This document shows positions 42,424 through 47,900 of a DNA stretch of 64,000 nucleotides, in pieces. Position 1 is the stretch's first letter. The number at the start of each line of letters is the position of its first letter. A program made the position numbers and the translations under genes. Source of the stretch: Campylobacter sp. (lineage in GTDB: Bacteria; Campylobacterota; Campylobacteria; Campylobacterales; Campylobacteraceae); NCBI GenBank assembly GCA_052170535.1, contig JBQNAH010000006.1, positions 15,027 through 79,026 of the forward strand. Direction: 5' to 3'. The notes beneath the pieces were generated by a model, which did no database searches, had not been told where the DNA came from, and saw nothing but the letters and a program-made list of their open reading frames with translations.

Positions 42424-43251
42424 TCATAAATTAAGATTATTCTTTTTTAATAATTTTAAATCCGCAATTTTTCCATAAATCGCGCTAAAATTTGCATCCA
42501 GCTCGGCTTTTCGCGCCTTGCAAATTTCTACAAATTTACTCTCTTTTTCGATTCCGATGAAATTTCGCCCGAGTAAATTCGCCCCGATTCCAGTCGTTCC
42601 AGCCCCGCAAAATGGGTCGCAAATCACGCTATTTTCGTTGCTTGCCATTAAAATTAGTCGCACTAGCAAAGACAACGGCTTTTGTGTCGGGTGTTTGCCA
42701 CACGTCTTTTCCCACTGCGCGATTGCGTTAAACGCCCATACGTCCTTCATTTGCTTATCATTGTTTAATTTTCTCATTAAATTATAGTTAAAAATATGTT
42801 TATGTTTTTCACTTTTTCGCGCCCAAATAATCTGCTCGGTCGAGTGCGTCAGATAGCGACAGCTGAAATTTGGCGGCGGATTGGTCTTTTGCCACGTGAT
42901 GACGTTTAGGATTTTGTAGCCCAGTTTTTGCAGCATACGACCGACCGAGAATATGTTATGATAAGTCCCGCTAATCATCAAGCTGCCGTTATCCGTGAGC
43001 GCATTTTTAGCCAGCGCGAGCCATTTAAGGTTGAATTTATCGATCTCATCGATGCCACAACTTTTATCCCACTCGCCTTTATTGACGCTGACGATTTTGC
43101 CGCTTTGAATACTAAGCCCATCGCTTGAGAGAAAATACGGCGGATCGGCAAAAATCAGGTCGAATTTGGCGTCAAATTCAGGCAGAATTTCAAAGCAATC
43201 GCCTTGAAAAAGTCTGAATTTAGCGTCTTGTGAAGTGAAATTATAATCCAT
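42424..43251 (-). CDS. dpnA: Beta-class amino-DNA methyltransferase, DpnA-like (predicted GATC m6A)
   Basis: IFADPPYFLS..G...SG..VSV.KG.WDK, WQKTNPPPNFSCRYLTHSTE, KHPTQKP, DPFCGAGTTG; closely resembles DpnA/M.HpyAIII-type enzymes. Confidence 0.85.
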   Translation of the reverse strand: MDYNFTSQDAKFRLFQGDCFEILPEFDAKFDLIFADPPYFLSSDGLSIQSGKIVSVNKGEWDKSCGIDEIDKFNLKWLALAKNALTDNGSLMISGTYHNIFSVGRMLQKLGYKILNVITWQKTNPPPNFSCRYLTHSTEQIIWARKSEKHKHIFNYNLMRKLNNDKQMKDVWAFNAIAQWEKTCGKHPTQKPLSLLVRLILMASNENSVICDPFCGAGTTGIGANLLGRNFIGIEKESKFVEICKARKAELDANFSAIYGKIADLKLLKKNNLNL

Positions 43252-43567
43252 TTTTCACATCCACTATAAAGTCCCCAATATTGGCTAAGTTGTAAATTTC
43301 CACGCTTTTATAGGCTTCTTCGAGTTTATTTTTAGCAGCCAGCCAGCCTTGACCATCGGTTATCCAGATAAATTTAAAGCCGTTAAAGCGCGAAATTTTC
43401 TCTGAAATTTCTATATACGAGCGCGCAACTTCGTTTAATTTTGAACCGCCCGTACTATAAAAATTTGCTTCAATTAGATACGTTACGCCGCCCGCTTTTA
43501 TAACGAAATCAAAAATCTTTTGATCGCTTCCTAAGTTTAGAGTGAAATTTTTACTACTGACTTCGGC

Positions 43568-43591
43568 TTGAAAGCAGATATTTTCACTCTT
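43568..43591 (+). repeat. Left 24-bp inverted repeat TTGAAAGCAGATATTTTCACTCTT
   Basis: Reverse complement of 43883-43906 at 23/24 positions; 17-bp perfect core 43575-43591. Confidence 0.95.
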
Positions 43592-43882
43592 TTTGAACAA
43601 AGTAAGCAATGCTTCAAAGTGTTAAATTTACTCATCGCCGTTCGCGATAAAAACACTGATGTGATTTTGGCAAGTGGCGAGCTAACGAAGATGGGAACGT
43701 ATTTTGAAAGTCCAGAAAAAATTTACGAATTTTGCCGCGAAACTGGACTAGATAAAATTTTCATAGACGGAAAGGTTAAAAATTTGCACGATTACGTTTT
43801 TGGAGTAGAGATCGGACTTGATACGAATGCGCGTAAAAATCGCGGTGGCGTAAATTTCGCGCGAACTATTTCAGAATACTTT
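43592..43882 (+). other. 291-bp inverted (putatively invertible) intragenic segment, 97 codons
   Basis: Encodes the middle of the endonuclease on the opposite strand; bounded by the inverted repeats. Confidence 0.85.
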
Positions 43883-43906
43883 AAGAGTGAAAATATCTGT
43901 TTTCAA
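43883..43906 (-). repeat. Right 24-bp inverted repeat (plus strand AAGAGTGAAAATATCTGTTTTCAA)
   Basis: Reverse complement TTGAAAACAGATATTTTCACTCTT differs from the left repeat at one base. Confidence 0.95.
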
Positions 43907-44072
43907 ATTTTTAGAGCCGAGCAAAAAATTAAGCGTATTCAGATGAATTGATACTTCTTGCACGTTTTTATCGCATTTTTCAAAATCAGTAAAGTAGCCA
44001 AGATTCGCATTCGTTTTTCTAAGCGAGCGTAAAAAATCATCAAATTTCGTTAAATTTCGTTCCATAAAATTC

Positions 44073-44258
44073 CTAAATTTTGATATCGGGCTCACCAGCT
44101 GCCTTAAAGTCTGCGCAGACAAAATCATCTGCACACAAAACGATCTCGCAGTTTTCGTAAGCCGCTCGCGCGATCTTACACGCTTCTTCTTTATTTTTTG
44201 CTTTAATCACGACCTTTTTTGCTAAAATTTCAGTGATCTCTACTTCAAATTCTTTCAT
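44073..44258 (-). CDS. DpnD/PcfM-like small protein (61 aa)
   Basis: FEVEITEILAKKVVIKAKNKEEA......YENCEIVL.ADDF pattern typical of the DpnD/PcfM family; TGATG coupling with the upstream gene. Confidence 0.7.
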   Translation of the reverse strand: MKEFEVEITEILAKKVVIKAKNKEEACKIARAAYENCEIVLCADDFVCADFKAAGEPDIKI

Positions 44259-44968
44259 CAAATCCCCATAGAAATTTTACCAATTTCACTCTCTTTTTCA
44301 TATTGCCTTACGATATCTTCATAGCAAGCAAATTTAACTTTTTTGCTTATACCCTCGTAAATGCTATCCTTTAAAACATTATCAAACTCCTTTTTTCTTT
44401 GAAAATCAGCCACTATAAACATTTTAGCGTTGAAATCCTGCAGTTCATAAAATTTATTTAGAGAGTTTTTAAAGTCGGTACTGTGTTCTACTTCGTAAAA
44501 TGCATCTGGCAAATTTCTACGATTAAACCATATCGCATCAACGTTTTTTGCTTTCTTTACGATATTTTCATAACTAAAATTATAAATTTCTTTTAGCGTC
44601 GTTAATTCGGTTAGTTTTTTATCAAGATAAAACTTATTTTTGTCTTGCGCTGGCACATATGTCTGAAAATGCCTCAAGTTTCCGATTTCGACAATGATTC
44701 CTTGATAATATGCGTGAGTAAAATTTGGATTTATTTCGCTTTTACCATCGCCAGTTTTAGCCGTATTTTGTGCTTCAAAATCCTTAAGCCCCCAAAGTCC
44801 GGGCCTAATTTTATAAAATTCTTTATTGGTTTGTACTATGCTTCTTATACTCGCAAACGGGGTTTTTGTTCCCCATTTACTAATATCGGTTTTAGAATAA
44901 AGTTGCGAGAAAGTAGCCATACCGCCAAGGCTGGCTAAGGCTTTTATAACGCATTGTTTTTGTGTCAT
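44258..44968 (-). CDS. Putative nuclease: N-terminal winged-helix-like domain plus PD-(D/E)XK-like domain
   Basis: N-terminal ...[11 protein letters not shown]....[10 protein letters not shown] (HARE-HTH/wH-like); C-terminal H...QG..VEIG, VDAIW...[12 protein letters not shown] overlap with the carB stop. Confidence 0.55.
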
Positions 44969-47900
44969 CTCAAATACTCCTGCAAACTCTTAACTTCATA
45001 AACCGATCCATCTTGAACTGCTTTTATTGATTTAGTTGCCGCCAAAGCCGCTGCCATCGTGGTAAAGTAAGGAATTTTAAAGCGTAAAATATTTTGCCTG
45101 ATTTTCTTGCCGTCATCGGCGTTTGACTTGCTATCGCTTGTGTTAATAACCATTGCAATGTCGCCATTTTTAAGCCTGTCTTCGATATTTGGACGGCTTT
45201 CGCTTATTTTATAGACAAATTCCGCGCTGATTGCATTTTCGTTTAAAATTTTATGCGTTCCACCAGTTGCGATTATCCTAAATCCAAGAGAGATAAGCTT
45301 GCGCGCTAAATTTGCAGCCTGAGCTTTATCTTGATCAGCTAATGTCAAAAACACAAGCCCGCCCGTTGGTAGCGGATTGTTTGCAGCGATTTGACTTTTA
45401 GCAAAGCTTCGCGCAAAATCGCTTGAAATTCCCATAACTTCACCTGTGCTTTTCATCTCTGGACCAAGAATCAAATCCGCACCAGTTAGCTTATTAAACG
45501 GAAAAACCGCCTCTTTTACACAAACGTGATTTTTGATGCGTGGTAAAAATATCCCGTTTTCCTGCGTTAATACATTGTAAATATCATAAAATTTTAGTGC
45601 TTCTGGCAAATTCCCCTGCCACATTACGCGAGTGGCGACTTTTGCCATCGGTATGCCTGTTGCTTTACTTACAAAAGGCACGGTTCTGCTAGCTCTAGGA
45701 TTTACCTCAATCATATAAAGATTGTCTTTAAAAATCGCAAATTGGATATTCATAAGTCCGATAACGCCTAAATTTAGAGCAATATCACGTGTTTGAGTTC
45801 TGATTTTAGTAATCATCTCATCACTTAAATTTAACGGTGGCAAAATGCAAGCCGAATCGCCTGAATGAATGCCAGCTTCTTCAATATGTTGCATAATCGC
45901 ACCGATATAAACGTCTTTTCCATCGCTTATCGCATCAACATCAAGCTCGGTTGCGTCTTGTAAAAATTTATCAAGTAAAACTGGGGAATTATTACTAACA
46001 TCAACTGCTTCGCTCATATATTCACGCAACTGAGCCTCGTTATGCACGCATCGCATCGCACGACCGCCTAAAACGTAACTAGGTCGCACAAGCACTGGAT
46101 AGCCTATATTTGCCGCCTTTTGCACCGCCTCTTTTTCGCTCGTAGCCGTGGCATTTTGCGGTTGAAGAACGCCAATTTTGCTTATAAAGTCGCTAAATTT
46201 CTTACGATCTTCGGCTATATCAATCGTTCTAGCACTCGTGCCAATAATTTTAGCACCGATAACACTTAGATGCTTGGCAAATTTTAACGGTGTTTGTCCG
46301 CCAAAATGTACTATCACGCCATCTGGATGCTCGCGCTCAATAACCGATCTCACGTGCTCAAAATCAATCGGCTCAAAATATAAAATATCGCTCGTATCGT
46401 AATCGGTGCTAACCGTTTCTGGGTTGCAGTTATACATTATCGTTTTTAAACCCATATCGCGCAAAGCAAAGCAGGCGTGCACACAACAATAATCAAACTC
46501 AATGCCTTGCCCTATGCGGTTTGGACCGCCACCGATAATCATTACCTTTTTGCAATCTTGCAAATTTTGCTGAAAGAGCGGTAATTTTGTTATATTTGTA
46601 GTTGAGTAAAGATACGGCGTAAGTGCCTTAAATTCTCCCGCGCACGTATCAACTTCGTTGTATTCAAAAACGACGCCTAATTTATTTCTGGCAAAATAAA
46701 TATCGCTTTGGCTTAATTCAAGATTGTCTTTTTTATTTATCAAACGAGCTATCATTTTGTCTGAAAAACCCATAGATTTGGCTGTTCTTAGTAAATTTTC
46801 ATCATTTAAAATATCCATATCTATCTTGTTTTCAAAACAAACAATGTCAAAAATTTGACCCAAAAACCAAGGATCAATTTTGCTAAATTCGTGCACTTGC
46901 GATACGCTAAAGCCTTCGCGAAACGCTTGAGCTATCATTAAAATTCGCTTCTCGTTTGCATTTCTAAGCCCATAAATCAACTCTTCGCGACTTAAATTTA
47001 ACTCATTAAATCCGTAAAAATCGCGCTCCATCGAACAAAGTGCCTTTTGAAGGCTTTCTTTAAAAGTCCTGCCTATCGCCATCACTTCACCTACACTTTT
47101 CATAGCCGTACCTAAATATGGATTTGAGCCTGGGAATTTCTCAAATGTAAAGCGCGGAATTTTAGTAACGATATAATCAATCACTGGTTCAAAACTAGCC
47201 GCCGTGCCTGTAATGTCGTTTTTTATCTCGTCAAGACTAAATCCTACCGCAAGCAAAGTCGCAACTTTAGCTATCGGATAACCAGTAGCTTTTGAAGCCA
47301 AAGCCGAACTGCGACTGACGCGCGGATTCATTTCTATGACGATCATTCTGCCAGTTTTAGGATCTATTGCAAATTGAACGTTTGAGCCGCCCGTATCAAC
47401 GCCTATCTCGCGCAAAATAGCAAAACTAGCATCTCGCATCATTTGATATTCTTTATCAGTTAATGTAAGCGCGGGCGCAACCGTAACGCTATCGCCAGTA
47501 TGCACACCCATCGGATCAAAATTTTCAATCGAGCAAACGATAATGCAATTATCTTTACAATCCCTAATAACCTCCATTTCGTATTCTTTCCAACCAAGCA
47601 AACTCTCTTCTATTAAAATTTCGTGAATAGGGCTAGCGTCTAAGCCAAATTGGGCCAATTCGCGAAATTCGTCTATATTATAAGCTACTCCAGATCCTGC
47701 TCCACCAAGCGTGTAACTTGCTCTAATAATAAGCGGGAAACCGATATTTAAAGCTGCGTTCATAGCCTCTTCAAAGCTATAAGCATACTGGCTTTTTGGC
47801 AAATCCATACCGATTTTTTGCATAGCTTTTTTAAATTCCTGCCTATCTTCGCCCTTTTTTATAGCCGCTGGATTTGCGCCTAAGAATTTCACATCGCCAA

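What the first reader, a model, noticed from the sequence alone, without database searches (positions are those of the whole stretch)
43568..43906. Each repeat is a TGAAAA-N6-TTTTCA dyad resembling an XerH/difH tyrosine-recombinase site
Seen: the right site is TGAAAA-TATCTG-TTTTCA (43888-43905, perfect 6-bp arms). The left site is TGAAAG-CAGATA-TTTTCA (43569-43586, one mismatch). The asymmetric 6-bp spacers are identical (CAGATA) and oppositely oriented. Established: two inverted arms around a 6-8 bp asymmetric spacer is the layout of tyrosine-recombinase sites, and inverted spacers give inversion. As I recall it, the difH site used by the single XerH recombinase of Campylobacter/Helicobacter has a TGAAAA-N6-TTTTCA core; this must be verified. 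No recombinase is encoded in this window. Inference: a recombinase acting in trans, plausibly the housekeeping dimer resolvase XerH, is co-opted to flip a defence gene.
Basis: partly seen in the sequence, partly recalled or inferred. Interest (0 to 1): 0.85.

Follow-up and report, generated by a model that had tools for sequence, protein, structure and literature searches.

The report
Flip switch inside a restriction enzyme gene
A 300-base piece in the middle of a restriction-enzyme gene can be flipped to turn the enzyme off and on, and the flip sites look like the site used by the cell's chromosome-untangling enzyme XerH, which may therefore do the flipping.

Summary
Two 24-nt inverted repeats (43568-43591, 43883-43906; one mismatch) each hold a TGAAAR-N6-TTTTCA dyad with identical, oppositely oriented spacers.

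They lie inside a DpnII-family restriction endonuclease gene. In this window the 291-bp segment between them is inverted, which splits the gene in three. Inverting it in silico restores one open frame.

The element is conserved in the genus. Of 142 species genomes, 46 hold the locus:
- 26 are OFF like the window.
- 5 are ON with both sites.
- 9 have contig ends inside the switch.

A tree of sequence outside the segment needs at least 5 independent flips. In 23 of 25 OFF copies tested, flipping gives an intact frame. Spacers differ between species (5 variants) but match between the two sites in 34 of 34 genomes, even where this changes an amino acid.

The arms keep TGAAA/TTTCA, the bases that H. 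pylori XerH reads in difH, with the same spacing and the conserved C. No recombinase is linked to the locus. XerH is the only recombinase of this genome with orthologues in five other switch genomes.

XerH action is inferred, not shown: the outer-arm T4 is missing, and no reads were available.

The parts
43568..43591 (.). Left inverted repeat, called site B here (the downstream site in gene direction). The dyad TGAAAG-CAGATA-TTTTCA lies at 43569-43586. The outer arm is on the low-coordinate side.
   Evidence: The homologous site is conserved in relatives.
43883..43906 (.). Right inverted repeat, called site A here (the upstream site in gene direction). The dyad TGAAAA-TATCTG-TTTTCA lies at 43888-43905. 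The outer arm is on the high-coordinate side.
43592..43882 (+). Invertible segment. It encodes the middle third of the endonuclease (Pfam DpnII positions 49-175 of 278). In this copy it reads on the + strand, opposite to the rest of the gene, so the gene is OFF.
   Evidence: E 7.7e-32 to PF04556 for the + strand ORF 43568-43951. In one search, in-silico inversion gives one open frame.
43871..44065 (-). N-terminal piece of the endonuclease gene. The likely start is the ATG at 44065 (MERNL...). In the OFF state the frame stops 3 codons after site A, giving a 64-aa stub.
   Evidence: PF04556 positions 1-55. The start was placed by alignment with intact homologues.
43241..43567 (-). C-terminal piece of the endonuclease gene (PF04556 positions 169-273).
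   Evidence: E 2.5e-35.
42424..43251 (-). Intact DNA methyltransferase of the N6_N4_Mtase family with a DPPY motif. It overlaps the end of the endonuclease gene by 11 nt and lies outside the switch, so inversion does not break it.
   Evidence: (PF01555, E 1.9e-57).
44073..44261 (-). Small DpnD/PcfM-like ORF directly upstream of the endonuclease gene.
   Evidence: PF14207, E 2.2e-15. It is syntenic in relatives.
44258..44968 (-). 236-aa ORF between carB and the DpnD-like gene. It has no Pfam or NCBIfam hit and only a weak match to a PADLOC Type II restriction enzyme model. It is not a recombinase family member, and an unrelated ORF replaces it in one switch-bearing clade.

Best explanation
This is a programmed ON/OFF flip switch (an intragenic inverton) inside the endonuclease gene of a DpnII-type restriction-modification system.

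Two 18-bp recombination sites sit in inverted orientation in the reading frame, 319 bp apart start to start. Each site has two inverted TGAAA arms around a short asymmetric core.

Conservative site-specific recombination within the 6-bp spacers inverts the middle third of the gene:
- In one orientation the 274-codon gene is intact (restriction ON).
- In the other, the state seen in this window, translation stops 3 codons after the first site (restriction OFF).

The methyltransferase gene downstream is untouched. The genome can therefore stay protected, and the switch can safely flip back.

The most likely enzyme is XerH, the cell's single chromosome-dimer resolvase, acting in trans. The arms present exactly the bases that XerH reads in difH, at the same spacing. 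The different spacer keeps the switch from recombining with difH itself.

Shown here: the anatomy, the conservation, the recurrent inversion between species and the maintained coding capacity. Inferred: switching within a population, continued methylase expression, and XerH as the enzyme.
For: ANATOMY
- Three pieces of one PF04556 gene cover profile positions 1-55, 49-175 and 169-273, with the middle piece on the other strand.
- In-silico inversion gives one open frame.

CONSERVATION AND RECURRENCE
- 46 of 142 genus genomes hold the locus. By they fall into these classes:
  - 26 OFF.
  - 5 ON with both sites.
  - 1 ON without sites.
  - 9 with contig ends in or at the switch.
  - 1 with site B deleted.
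  - 4 remnants.
- A maximum-likelihood tree of 1080 nt outside the segment (31 rows) needs at least 5 changes of state, all forced by well-supported branches. It contains three ON/OFF sister pairs with branch lengths of 0 to 0.021.

MAINTAINED FUNCTION
- 23 of 25 OFF copies tested give a full-length open frame when flipped in silico. 2 carry frameshifting indels.

SITE-SPECIFIC SIGNATURE
- In several species the repeat is only the 19-nt dyad, and the flanks differ.
- The outer arms keep TGAAA in every correctly registered row of the 30 genomes aligned (3 rows were mis-registered).
- The spacer has 5 variants (CAGATA 18 genomes, CCGATA 8, CAAATA 5, CTGATA 2, CGGATA 1). It is identical between the two sites in 34 of 34 genomes.
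- The variable second spacer base is synonymous at site A (Thr ACN) but changes Cys to Gly, Ser or Arg at site B.
- DpnII homologues outside the genus are intact, carry no dyad and have variable residues at both places.

HETEROGENEITY HINT
- 9 of 46 assemblies break at the switch.
- In a 3-contig assembly (G092), two contig ends stop exactly at the two outer arms.
- In G129 the segment forms its own 307-nt contig.

XerH
- H. pylori XerH reads the inner 5 bp of each arm base-specifically (TGAAA/TTTCA by my indexing of the published site). It barely touches the 6-bp central region (PMC5241119, passages).
- The conserved C next to the left arm is present in all switch sites (PMC3325230).
- The genome has a full-length XerH (E 2.7e-92 to PDB 5jjv) and its difH.
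- XerH has 84-88% identical orthologues in 5 of 5 tested switch genomes. The other three full-length tyrosine recombinases reach only 24-41%, apart from one 70% match that is a pseudogene. The serine recombinase has 0 of 5.
- IS110/Piv-type genes are found in only 32 of 142 genomes, and none was found in either member of the G005/G160 sister pair.
- H. pylori XerH excised a difH-flanked cassette at the ectopic ureAB locus (PMC3325230). A site far from the terminus is therefore not an obstacle.
Against: - No reads could be examined (one search listed none). Co-existence of both orientations in one culture is inferred only from contig breaks.
- The states are strongly skewed: 26 OFF against 5 ON.
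- A seven-species clade with a one-base change in an inner arm is OFF in 7 of 7. This could mean locking or decay there.
- The switch sites lack the outer-arm thymine (T4 / position 14) in nearly all arms. Its substitution practically abolished recombination in H. pylori and E. coli assays (PMC5241119). A review reports that C. jejuni XerH showed no left/right binding preference (PMC5357621 section 13).
- One clade still flipped recently (G007 ON versus G122 OFF) with an inner arm reading TTAACA. That is two changes in bases XerH is said to read.
- XerH recombination at difH needs FtsK in H. pylori (PMC3325230), and the switch lies 666-785 kb (about 35-38% of the chromosome) from difH in five near-complete genomes.
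- A recombinase from a family not searched cannot be excluded. Orthology of the other recombinases was tested in only 5 switch genomes.
Confidence: 0.55

Rival explanations
1. The switch is a programmed site-specific inverton, but a different, unidentified trans-acting recombinase flips it. The recombinase's half-site happens to resemble, or was copied from, the XerH half-site. It could be a tyrosine recombinase on a variable element or an enzyme of a family not searched.
For: - Every switch genome of good quality has 2-15 PF00589 matches.
- The sites lack the T4 feature of difH.
- A TTAACA arm is tolerated.
- Recombinases named Xer in Ureaplasma invert phase-variable loci while another protein binds dif (PMC3599477, abstract seen).
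Against: - None of G000's other recombinases has an orthologue in all five tested switch genomes.
- IS110-type genes are missing from several switch genomes.
- No recombinase gene lies beside the locus in any of the loci read.
- The sites are nearly invariant across species whose variable recombinase sets differ.
Confidence: 0.22
2. No site-specific enzyme is involved. The segment inverts by recombination between short inverted repeats, either RecA-dependent or by template switching at the hairpin-forming dyads during replication. Selection keeps the repeats because the reversible knock-out is useful.
For: - Each site is a potential hairpin, and the two copies share 14-24 identical bases.
- All inferred crossover windows fall within the shared stretch, as any homology-driven event would. 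The windows run from the spacer into the inner arm in the G005/G160 pair and cover the 16 nt shared in the G007/G122 clade.
- Arm changes are tolerated.
Against: - Homology alone would let the whole repeat drift as long as the copies match. Only the spacer does this (5 matched variants in 34 of 34 genomes). The palindromic arms stay fixed on TGAAA/TTTCA.
- Homologous exchange does not need the internal two-fold symmetry of each site.
- Repeats of 14-19 nt are very short for at least 5 flips among 30 species plus 9 broken assemblies.
Confidence: 0.15
3. The inversion is an accidental, essentially irreversible rearrangement that killed the gene. The likeness to difH is coincidence.
For: - Most copies are OFF (26 against 5).
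- Three copies show further decay: G122 and G083 have frameshifts and G148 has a deletion.
- A single TGAAA-N8-TTTCA is not rare in this genome (15 sites).
Against: - The tree requires at least 5 independent state changes.
- 23 of 25 OFF copies remain intact apart from the inversion, although the loci differ by 20-33% in DNA.
- The spacers change in concert at an amino-acid cost.
- The dyads are absent from homologues in other genera.
Confidence: 0.03

Closest known systems
difH / XerH chromosome-dimer resolution site of Campylobacter and Helicobacter
   Same: Both have inverted TGAAA(A) arms, a 6-bp asymmetric central region and a C at the first central position (TGAAAAC). The same host encodes XerH. 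The outer arm of site A with its flank (AATTTGAAAA) equals one arm of the genome's own difH.
   Different: - There are two copies in inverted orientation, inside a coding sequence.
- They lie about 35-38% of the chromosome away from difH.
- The spacer differs from the difH spacer CTATAA at 4 of 6 positions.
- The outer-arm T4 is absent.
- The outcome is inversion of 300 bp, not resolution of chromosome dimers.
Intragenic invertons of the premature-stop type (Bacteroides thetaiotaomicron thiC and others; bioRxiv 10.1101/2023.03.11.532203, passages seen)
   Same: The inverted repeats lie wholly within one ORF. One orientation gives the full protein and the other a premature stop.
   Different: - The target here is a Type IIP restriction endonuclease.
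- The element is conserved with both states across dozens of species.
- The sites mimic the host's dif site, and no dedicated invertase is apparent.
- The passages I saw in that paper name no Campylobacter and no Xer (0 occurrences each).
Phase-variable restriction-modification by inversion: Type I hsdS shufflons, and the Type II/IIG, BREX and DISARM gene-altering inversions (PMC9881135, passages; PMC4948785 and PMC7672463, listings and abstracts only)
   Same: A defence system is diversified or switched by programmed inversion, giving heterogeneity within a population.
   Different: Those systems swap specificity modules between a gene and silent partial copies, usually with a linked invertase. 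Here there is no silent copy and no change of specificity, only ON/OFF of the nuclease while the methylase stays intact.
fimS switch of E. coli with FimB/FimE (recalled, not checked here: a 314-bp element with 9-bp inverted repeats)
   Same: A tyrosine-recombinase type layout inverts a segment of about 300 bp, giving stochastic ON/OFF.
   Different: fimS carries a promoter, lies between genes and has two dedicated recombinase genes next to it.
Exploitation of Xer by other DNA: plasmid cer/psi sites and integrative elements such as CTX phage (recalled; mobile elements using dif/Xer are mentioned in the abstract of PMC5357621). Also the 'Xer'-named invertases of Ureaplasma and Mycoplasma (PMC3599477 abstract; PMC5634654 listing)
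   Same: [quoted passage not shown] Xer-like enzymes can drive phase-variable inversions.
   Different: The known hijackers integrate or resolve rather than invert a host gene. In Ureaplasma the inverting 'XerC' is a separate enzyme from the one that binds dif. Here only one Xer exists.

Membership tests
difH-type XerH recombination site | Two inverted arms whose inner 5 bp (TGAAA / TTTCA) are read base-specifically by XerH | tested here: met
   All four arms in the window carry TGAAA/TTTCA. The feature is taken from PMC5241119 and indexed by me on the published H. pylori sequence. The left site's G/A mismatch falls on the arm base next to the spacer, outside those 5 bp.
difH-type XerH recombination site | 6-bp asymmetric central region with a conserved C next to one arm (position 23 of PMC3325230) | tested here: met
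   The window has TGAAAA-CAGATA and TGAAAG-CAGATA. The C is kept in all 5 spacer variants.
difH-type XerH recombination site | Conserved thymine in the outer part of the left arm (T4 / position 14), needed for recombination in H. pylori | tested here: not met
   The base three positions outside the T of TGAAA is A or G in all four arms of the window, and in most relatives.
difH-type XerH recombination site | Single copy, intergenic, near the replication terminus | tested here: not met
   There are two copies inside an ORF, 666-785 kb from difH in five near-complete genomes.
difH-type XerH recombination site | Bound and cleaved by XerH | not testable with these tools
   Needs EMSA, suicide-substrate or in vivo assays.
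Intragenic inverton (premature-stop type) | Inverted repeats within one ORF, with inversion creating a premature stop | tested here: met
Intragenic inverton (premature-stop type) | Both orientations occur in nature | tested here: met
   26 OFF, 5 ON with sites, and at least 5 independent changes on the tree.
Intragenic inverton (premature-stop type) | Both orientations co-exist within one clonal population | tested here: inconclusive
   No runs were listed. The only indirect evidence is that 9 of 46 assemblies have contig ends in or at the switch.
DpnII restriction endonuclease family (PF04556) | Match to the family profile over its full length, above the curated cut-off | tested here: met
   The three pieces score 49.8, 111.1 and 122.6 bits (cut-off 23) and cover profile positions 1-273 of 278. 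Intact relatives of 272-274 aa exist. GATC specificity was not tested.
Invertible switch with a dedicated linked recombinase (fim/hin type) | Recombinase gene next to the invertible segment | tested here: not met
   No PF00589 or PF00239 hit lies on the window's contig. The neighbours are carB, a 236-aa ORF, a DpnD-like gene and the methylase.

The most novel reading that the evidence does not exclude
XerH, the single housekeeping chromosome-dimer resolvase, doubles as the invertase of a host phase-variation switch. The lineage would have written two weak difH mimics into the reading frame of its own restriction endonuclease, at an amino-acid cost, with a private spacer that insulates them from difH. 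This gives reversible restriction ON/OFF without any dedicated recombinase gene. If so, Xer recombinases are a hidden source of programmed inversions, and 'orphan' invertons in other bacteria may be explained by dif mimicry.
Probability: 0.5. Interest if true: 0.88.

Novelty: new variant of a known kind. Interest (0 to 1): 0.78.

Why it matters
Phase-variable restriction is known from repeat-tract slippage and from shuffling of specificity genes. Intragenic invertons were described only recently. This case adds three things.

1. It is a clean ON/OFF inverton in a classical Type IIP nuclease gene. It is kept, with both states, across dozens of species, which makes it one of the better comparative proofs that an intragenic inverton is functional.

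2. It shows a sequence signature that separates site-specific from homology-driven inversion without any experiment: arms fixed, spacers drifting in concert.

3. It offers a concrete, testable candidate for a long-standing gap, namely which enzyme flips invertons that have no invertase nearby. If XerH does it, a universal housekeeping recombinase becomes a regulator of defence and DNA uptake in naturally transformable Campylobacter-type bacteria.

In practice, the state of this switch could decide whether a strain can be transformed or infected by phage in the laboratory.

Tried and rejected
- Public sequencing runs holding the locus: none was listed. Read laying was therefore not used, and heterogeneity within a culture could not be measured.
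- Dedicated recombinase near the locus: rejected.
- The upstream 236-aa ORF as a hidden recombinase: rejected.
  - It has no recombinase family hit.
  - It has a weak match to a Type II restriction enzyme model.
  - It is replaced by an unrelated 232-aa ORF in the G005/G020 clade, where a recent flip is seen (G005 OFF, G160 ON).
- IS110/Piv-type invertase: only a 103-aa fragment in this genome, and present in 32 of 142 genus genomes.
- Enrichment of difH-like dyads genome-wide: none. 15 TGAAA-N8-TTTCA sites against 3-20 at other spacings, and no second matched pair in this genome.
- A solved structure for the endonuclease: none by sequence.
- Promoter and terminator scan of 43000-45100: 4 promoter-like sites against 5.6 expected and no terminator. 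This is uninformative about methylase expression.
- GATC avoidance as a hint to specificity: observed/expected 0.62, fifth lowest of 16 palindromic tetramers. Not decisive.
- Literature: searches for XerH with difH, XerH with inversion, Campylobacter concisus with DpnII, Campylobacter with inverton, intragenic invertons, dif-like with inversion, phase variation and Xer, and Campylobacter with inversion, restriction endonuclease, inverted repeats and phase variation. Judged by the listed titles and abstracts and the passages I opened, none describes this switch. The library lacks most subscription journals, including Leroux et al. 2013 on C. jejuni XerH, which I know only through the review PMC5357621.
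- Script slips: one search failed on a bug of mine. In one search, three rows (G122, G127, G083) were mis-registered because of 1-2 nt indels or a wrong site pick. In one search, G122 and G127 were mis-registered and G083 showed its 318-nt spacing. All three were redone by hand.
Full report
**1. The observation**

One search shows TGAAAG-CAGATA-TTTTCA at 43569-43586 and TGAAAA-TATCTG-TTTTCA at 43888-43905. One search finds them as the cores of a 24-nt inverted repeat (43568-43591 / 43883-43906, one mismatch, 291 nt between the arms).

The motif alone is not special in this 1.67-Mb, 35.7% G+C genome:
- Exact TGAAAA-N6-TTTTCA occurs 6 times, against a mean of about 2 for the 20 other spacings from 0 to 20.
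- With up to one mismatch there are 67 sites.
- The minimal core TGAAA-N8-TTTCA occurs 15 times, inside the range of 3-20 at other spacings.

What is special is the pair. It is the only pair within 30 kb in the genome whose spacers match.

**2. What the repeats sit in**

The repeats lie inside a restriction endonuclease gene on the minus strand. Three ORF pieces all match Pfam DpnII (PF04556), over profile positions 1-55, 49-175 and 169-273. The middle piece is on the plus strand.

Inverting 43592-43882 in a script gives one uninterrupted frame. By alignment with intact relatives it starts at the ATG at 44065 and has 274 codons. The window therefore holds the OFF state: the frame stops three codons after the first site, leaving a 64-aa stub.

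Directly downstream, overlapping by 11 nt, is an intact N6_N4-type DNA methyltransferase (42424-43251; PF01555, E 1.9e-57). Upstream lie a DpnD/PcfM-like ORF, a 236-aa ORF and carB.

**3. Is it a one-off accident or a switch?**

I searched the 142 species genomes of the genus with 1.2 kb of the locus (a first draw). Forty-six hold it. Reading the loci gave these classes:
- 26 are arranged like the window (OFF).
- 5 have both sites with the segment in gene orientation and an intact 272-274-aa gene (ON: G007, G023, G061, G105, G160).
- 1 has an intact gene without any dyad (G029).
- 9 have contig ends in or at the switch.
- 1 has a deletion that removes site B (G148).
- 4 keep only remnants.

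A maximum-likelihood tree was built from 1080 nt outside the invertible segment, with 31 rows. G137 and the broken assemblies were left out for lack of flank. The tree needs at least 5 changes of state, all forced by well-supported branches. The ON label is no more clustered than shuffled labels. Three ON/OFF pairs are sisters with branch lengths of 0 to 0.021: G007/G122, G160/G005 and G023/G006.

Although the loci differ by 20-33% in DNA, 23 of the 25 OFF copies tested regain a full-length open frame when flipped in silico. G122 and G083 carry 2-nt and 1-nt deletions. A dead gene would not stay intact like this. The OFF copies must spend enough time ON to be seen by selection.

**4. Hints of mixed populations**

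Reads could not be examined (one search listed no runs). However, 9 of 46 assemblies break at this 340-bp element.
- In G092, an assembly of only 3 contigs, one contig ends exactly at the outer arm of site A. Another begins exactly at the outer arm of site B.
- In G129 the segment is a separate 307-nt contig.
- In G138 one contig carries the C-terminal flank on both sides of the segment. It therefore holds an ON-type and an OFF-type junction together. That genome has 8% contamination, so two strains are an alternative.

A repeat of 18-24 nt is shorter than usual assembly k-mers, so breaks here suggest both orientations in the reads. This is indirect evidence.

**5. Signature of the recombination sites**

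Aligning both sites in 30 genomes (three rows were mis-registered and redone) and reading the rest shows four things.

First, in several species the repeat shrinks to the dyad itself. In G014 it is T-TGAAAR-CAGATA-TTTTCA (19 nt), and the flanks differ.

Second, the outer arms keep TGAAA everywhere. Inner arms are mostly TTTCA, with single changes in some clades (TTTCC, TTTCT, TTTTT) and TTAACA in one clade.

Third, the spacer varies between species but is the same at both sites in 34 of 34 genomes:

| Spacer | Genomes |
|---|---|
| CAGATA | 18 |
| CCGATA | 8 |
| CAAATA | 5 |
| CTGATA | 2 |
| CGGATA | 1 |

The variable second base is the third position of a Thr codon at site A. At site B it is the first position of a Cys codon, which becomes Gly, Ser or Arg. 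The two spacers thus change in concert at a cost to the protein.

Fourth, DpnII homologues in other genera of the order are all intact, have no dyad, and have variable residues at both places. This rests on 401 genomes searched, 38 with a match including G000 and 7 other genus genomes, and on the intact out-of-genus homologues read and aligned with 4 switch-bearing ON copies. The sites are therefore a derived feature written into tolerant parts of the protein.

Fixed palindromic arms with freely co-drifting spacers is what a recombinase that binds the arms and exchanges strands across the spacer predicts. Pure homology would let the whole repeat drift and has no use for two-fold symmetry within each site.

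**6. Comparison with difH**

Published Campylobacter difH sites read TTGAAAACTATAATTTTCAA, and the epsilonproteobacterial consensus is TGAAAAC---A-TTTTCAAA (PMC2731167 Table 2; PMC3325230 Tables 1 and 2; passages). This genome's difH (G000:C3:87671) is identical over 40 nt to the published C. curvus site.

The XerH-difH crystal structure paper (PMC5241119, passages) makes these points:
- XerH covers 11 and 10 bp of the arms.
- XerH reads the inner 5 bp of each arm base-specifically.
- XerH hardly contacts the 6-bp central region.

Indexing the published sequence, those 5 bp are TGAAA and TTTCA. These are exactly what all four arms keep. The conserved G/A mismatch of site B falls on the next base, outside them.

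The C next to the arm, whose mutation impaired recombination in H. pylori (PMC3325230), is kept in every spacer variant. The spacer differs from the difH spacer at 4 of 6 positions. That would prevent exchange between the switch and difH.

Against membership:
- The outer-arm thymine T4, essential in the H. pylori assays, is absent from nearly all arms.
- The sites are in a gene.
- They lie 666-785 kb (about 35-38% of the chromosome) from difH in five near-complete genomes.

Two published points soften this. H. pylori XerH excised a difH-flanked cassette at the ectopic ureAB locus (PMC3325230). A review reports that C. jejuni XerH bound left and right half-sites equally (PMC5357621 section 13).

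**7. Which enzyme?**

The genome has 7 places matching the tyrosine recombinase domain and one serine recombinase, none on the window's contig. One is a full-length XerH (353 aa, E 2.7e-92 to PDB 5jjv over the whole length).

I tested the recombinases against five switch-bearing genomes spanning the diversity: G121, G014, G023, G129 and G011.

| Recombinase of G000 | Result in the five genomes |
|---|---|
| XerH | 84-88% identical orthologues in 5 of 5 |
| Three other full-length tyrosine recombinases | 24-41% at best, apart from one 70% match that is full of stop codons |
| A 165-aa fragment | 52-54% in two genomes only |
| Serine recombinase | Matches nothing |

IS110/Piv-type genes occur in 32 of 142 genus genomes. 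They are missing from G005, G160, G023, G105 and G014.

The 236-aa neighbour is not a recombinase by any library. An unrelated ORF replaces it in a clade that still flips.

XerH is thus the only recombinase-family protein found in all the switch genomes tested. It is also found in nearly every genome of the genus: 139 of 142 have a PF00589 match, mostly at XerH-like scores of 120-130 bits. Co-occurrence therefore cannot prove the link.

**8. How it most likely works**

- Shown: two dyads in inverted orientation inside the gene, recurrent inversion, and preserved coding capacity.
- Inferred: recombinase dimers bind both dyads, synapse across the roughly 300-bp loop and exchange strands within the spacer. 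This flips the middle third of the gene and toggles restriction. The untouched methylase keeps the chromosome protected, so either state is safe.

The excess of OFF states (26 against 5) may reflect three things: selection for DNA uptake or against self-restriction in culture, a biased switch, or partial locking. The clade with a TGGAAA/TAGAAA inner arm is OFF in 7 of 7.

My estimates:

| Reading | Probability |
|---|---|
| Programmed switch | about 0.9 |
| Enzyme is XerH | about 0.55 |
| Another trans-acting recombinase | about 0.2 |
| Enzyme-free repeat recombination | about 0.15 |

**9. Novelty**

Intragenic invertons that create premature stops are known (bioRxiv 10.1101/2023.03.11.532203, passages). 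Programmed inversions that alter Type II/IIG, BREX and DISARM genes are also known (PMC9881135, passages). Xer-named enzymes invert phase-variable loci in Ureaplasma, where a different protein binds dif (PMC3599477, abstract).

I found no description of an invertible DpnII-type endonuclease gene, of this Campylobacter switch, or of a dimer-resolvase site mimic used for inversion of a host gene. The library lacks most subscription journals.

I therefore file it as a new variant of a known kind. The XerH co-option is the bold reading that remains open.

Noticed in passing
window 44258-44968 (-): A 236-aa ORF between carB and the DpnD-like gene has no Pfam or NCBIfam hit. It has a weak match to a PADLOC Type II restriction enzyme model (PDLC03534, E 3.3e-10, residues 80-187). 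In the G005/G020/G024 clade the same slot holds an unrelated 232-aa ORF (BLASTP E 0.42). The slot may be a variable second-nuclease position in the locus.
   Followed up: partly
window 44073-44261 (-): A DpnD/PcfM-like 62-aa ORF (PF14207, E 2.2e-15) sits directly upstream of a DpnII-type endonuclease gene and is syntenic in relatives. As I recall, in S. pneumoniae dpnD belongs to the alternative DpnI cassette, so the pairing here is unusual. Its function is unknown.
   Followed up: no
L057 (G113:C12), locus around 1640-2320: After in-silico flipping, the endonuclease frame runs on for 538 aa, into the methylase gene. The stop codon between R and M seems lost in this species, so a possible R-M fusion would form when ON.
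   Followed up: no
L064 (G087:C23) 37-54 and L063 (G087:C124) end: In G087 the arm base next to the spacer is the C/G variant on both outer arms. In other genomes it is found only at site B. This could be a point change or gene conversion between the sites. Both contigs end in or within 36 nt of the dyads.
   Followed up: partly
L041 (G138:C25) 1300-2041: One contig carries the C-terminal flank of the gene on both sides of the segment, in opposite orientation. This palindromic join contains one ON-type and one OFF-type junction. The cause is either mixed orientations in the reads or two strains (8% contamination).
   Followed up: partly
G000:C18:12877-12894 (outside the window): A further exact dyad TGAAAA-CAGATT-TTTTCA has a spacer one base different from the switch spacer. 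It is a single copy with no partner within 30 kb. Four other exact dyads lie on C1, C7 and C22, and on C3 (the difH site).
   Followed up: partly
whole genome G000: GGCC, CATG and GTAC are strongly under-represented (observed/expected 0.14, 0.24, 0.26). GATC is at 0.62. This suggests several other active or past restriction systems.
   Followed up: no
L043 (G148:C157) about 2020-2030: This OFF-state copy has a deletion of about 100 bp that removes site B. It is an example of terminal decay of the switch.
   Followed up: partly
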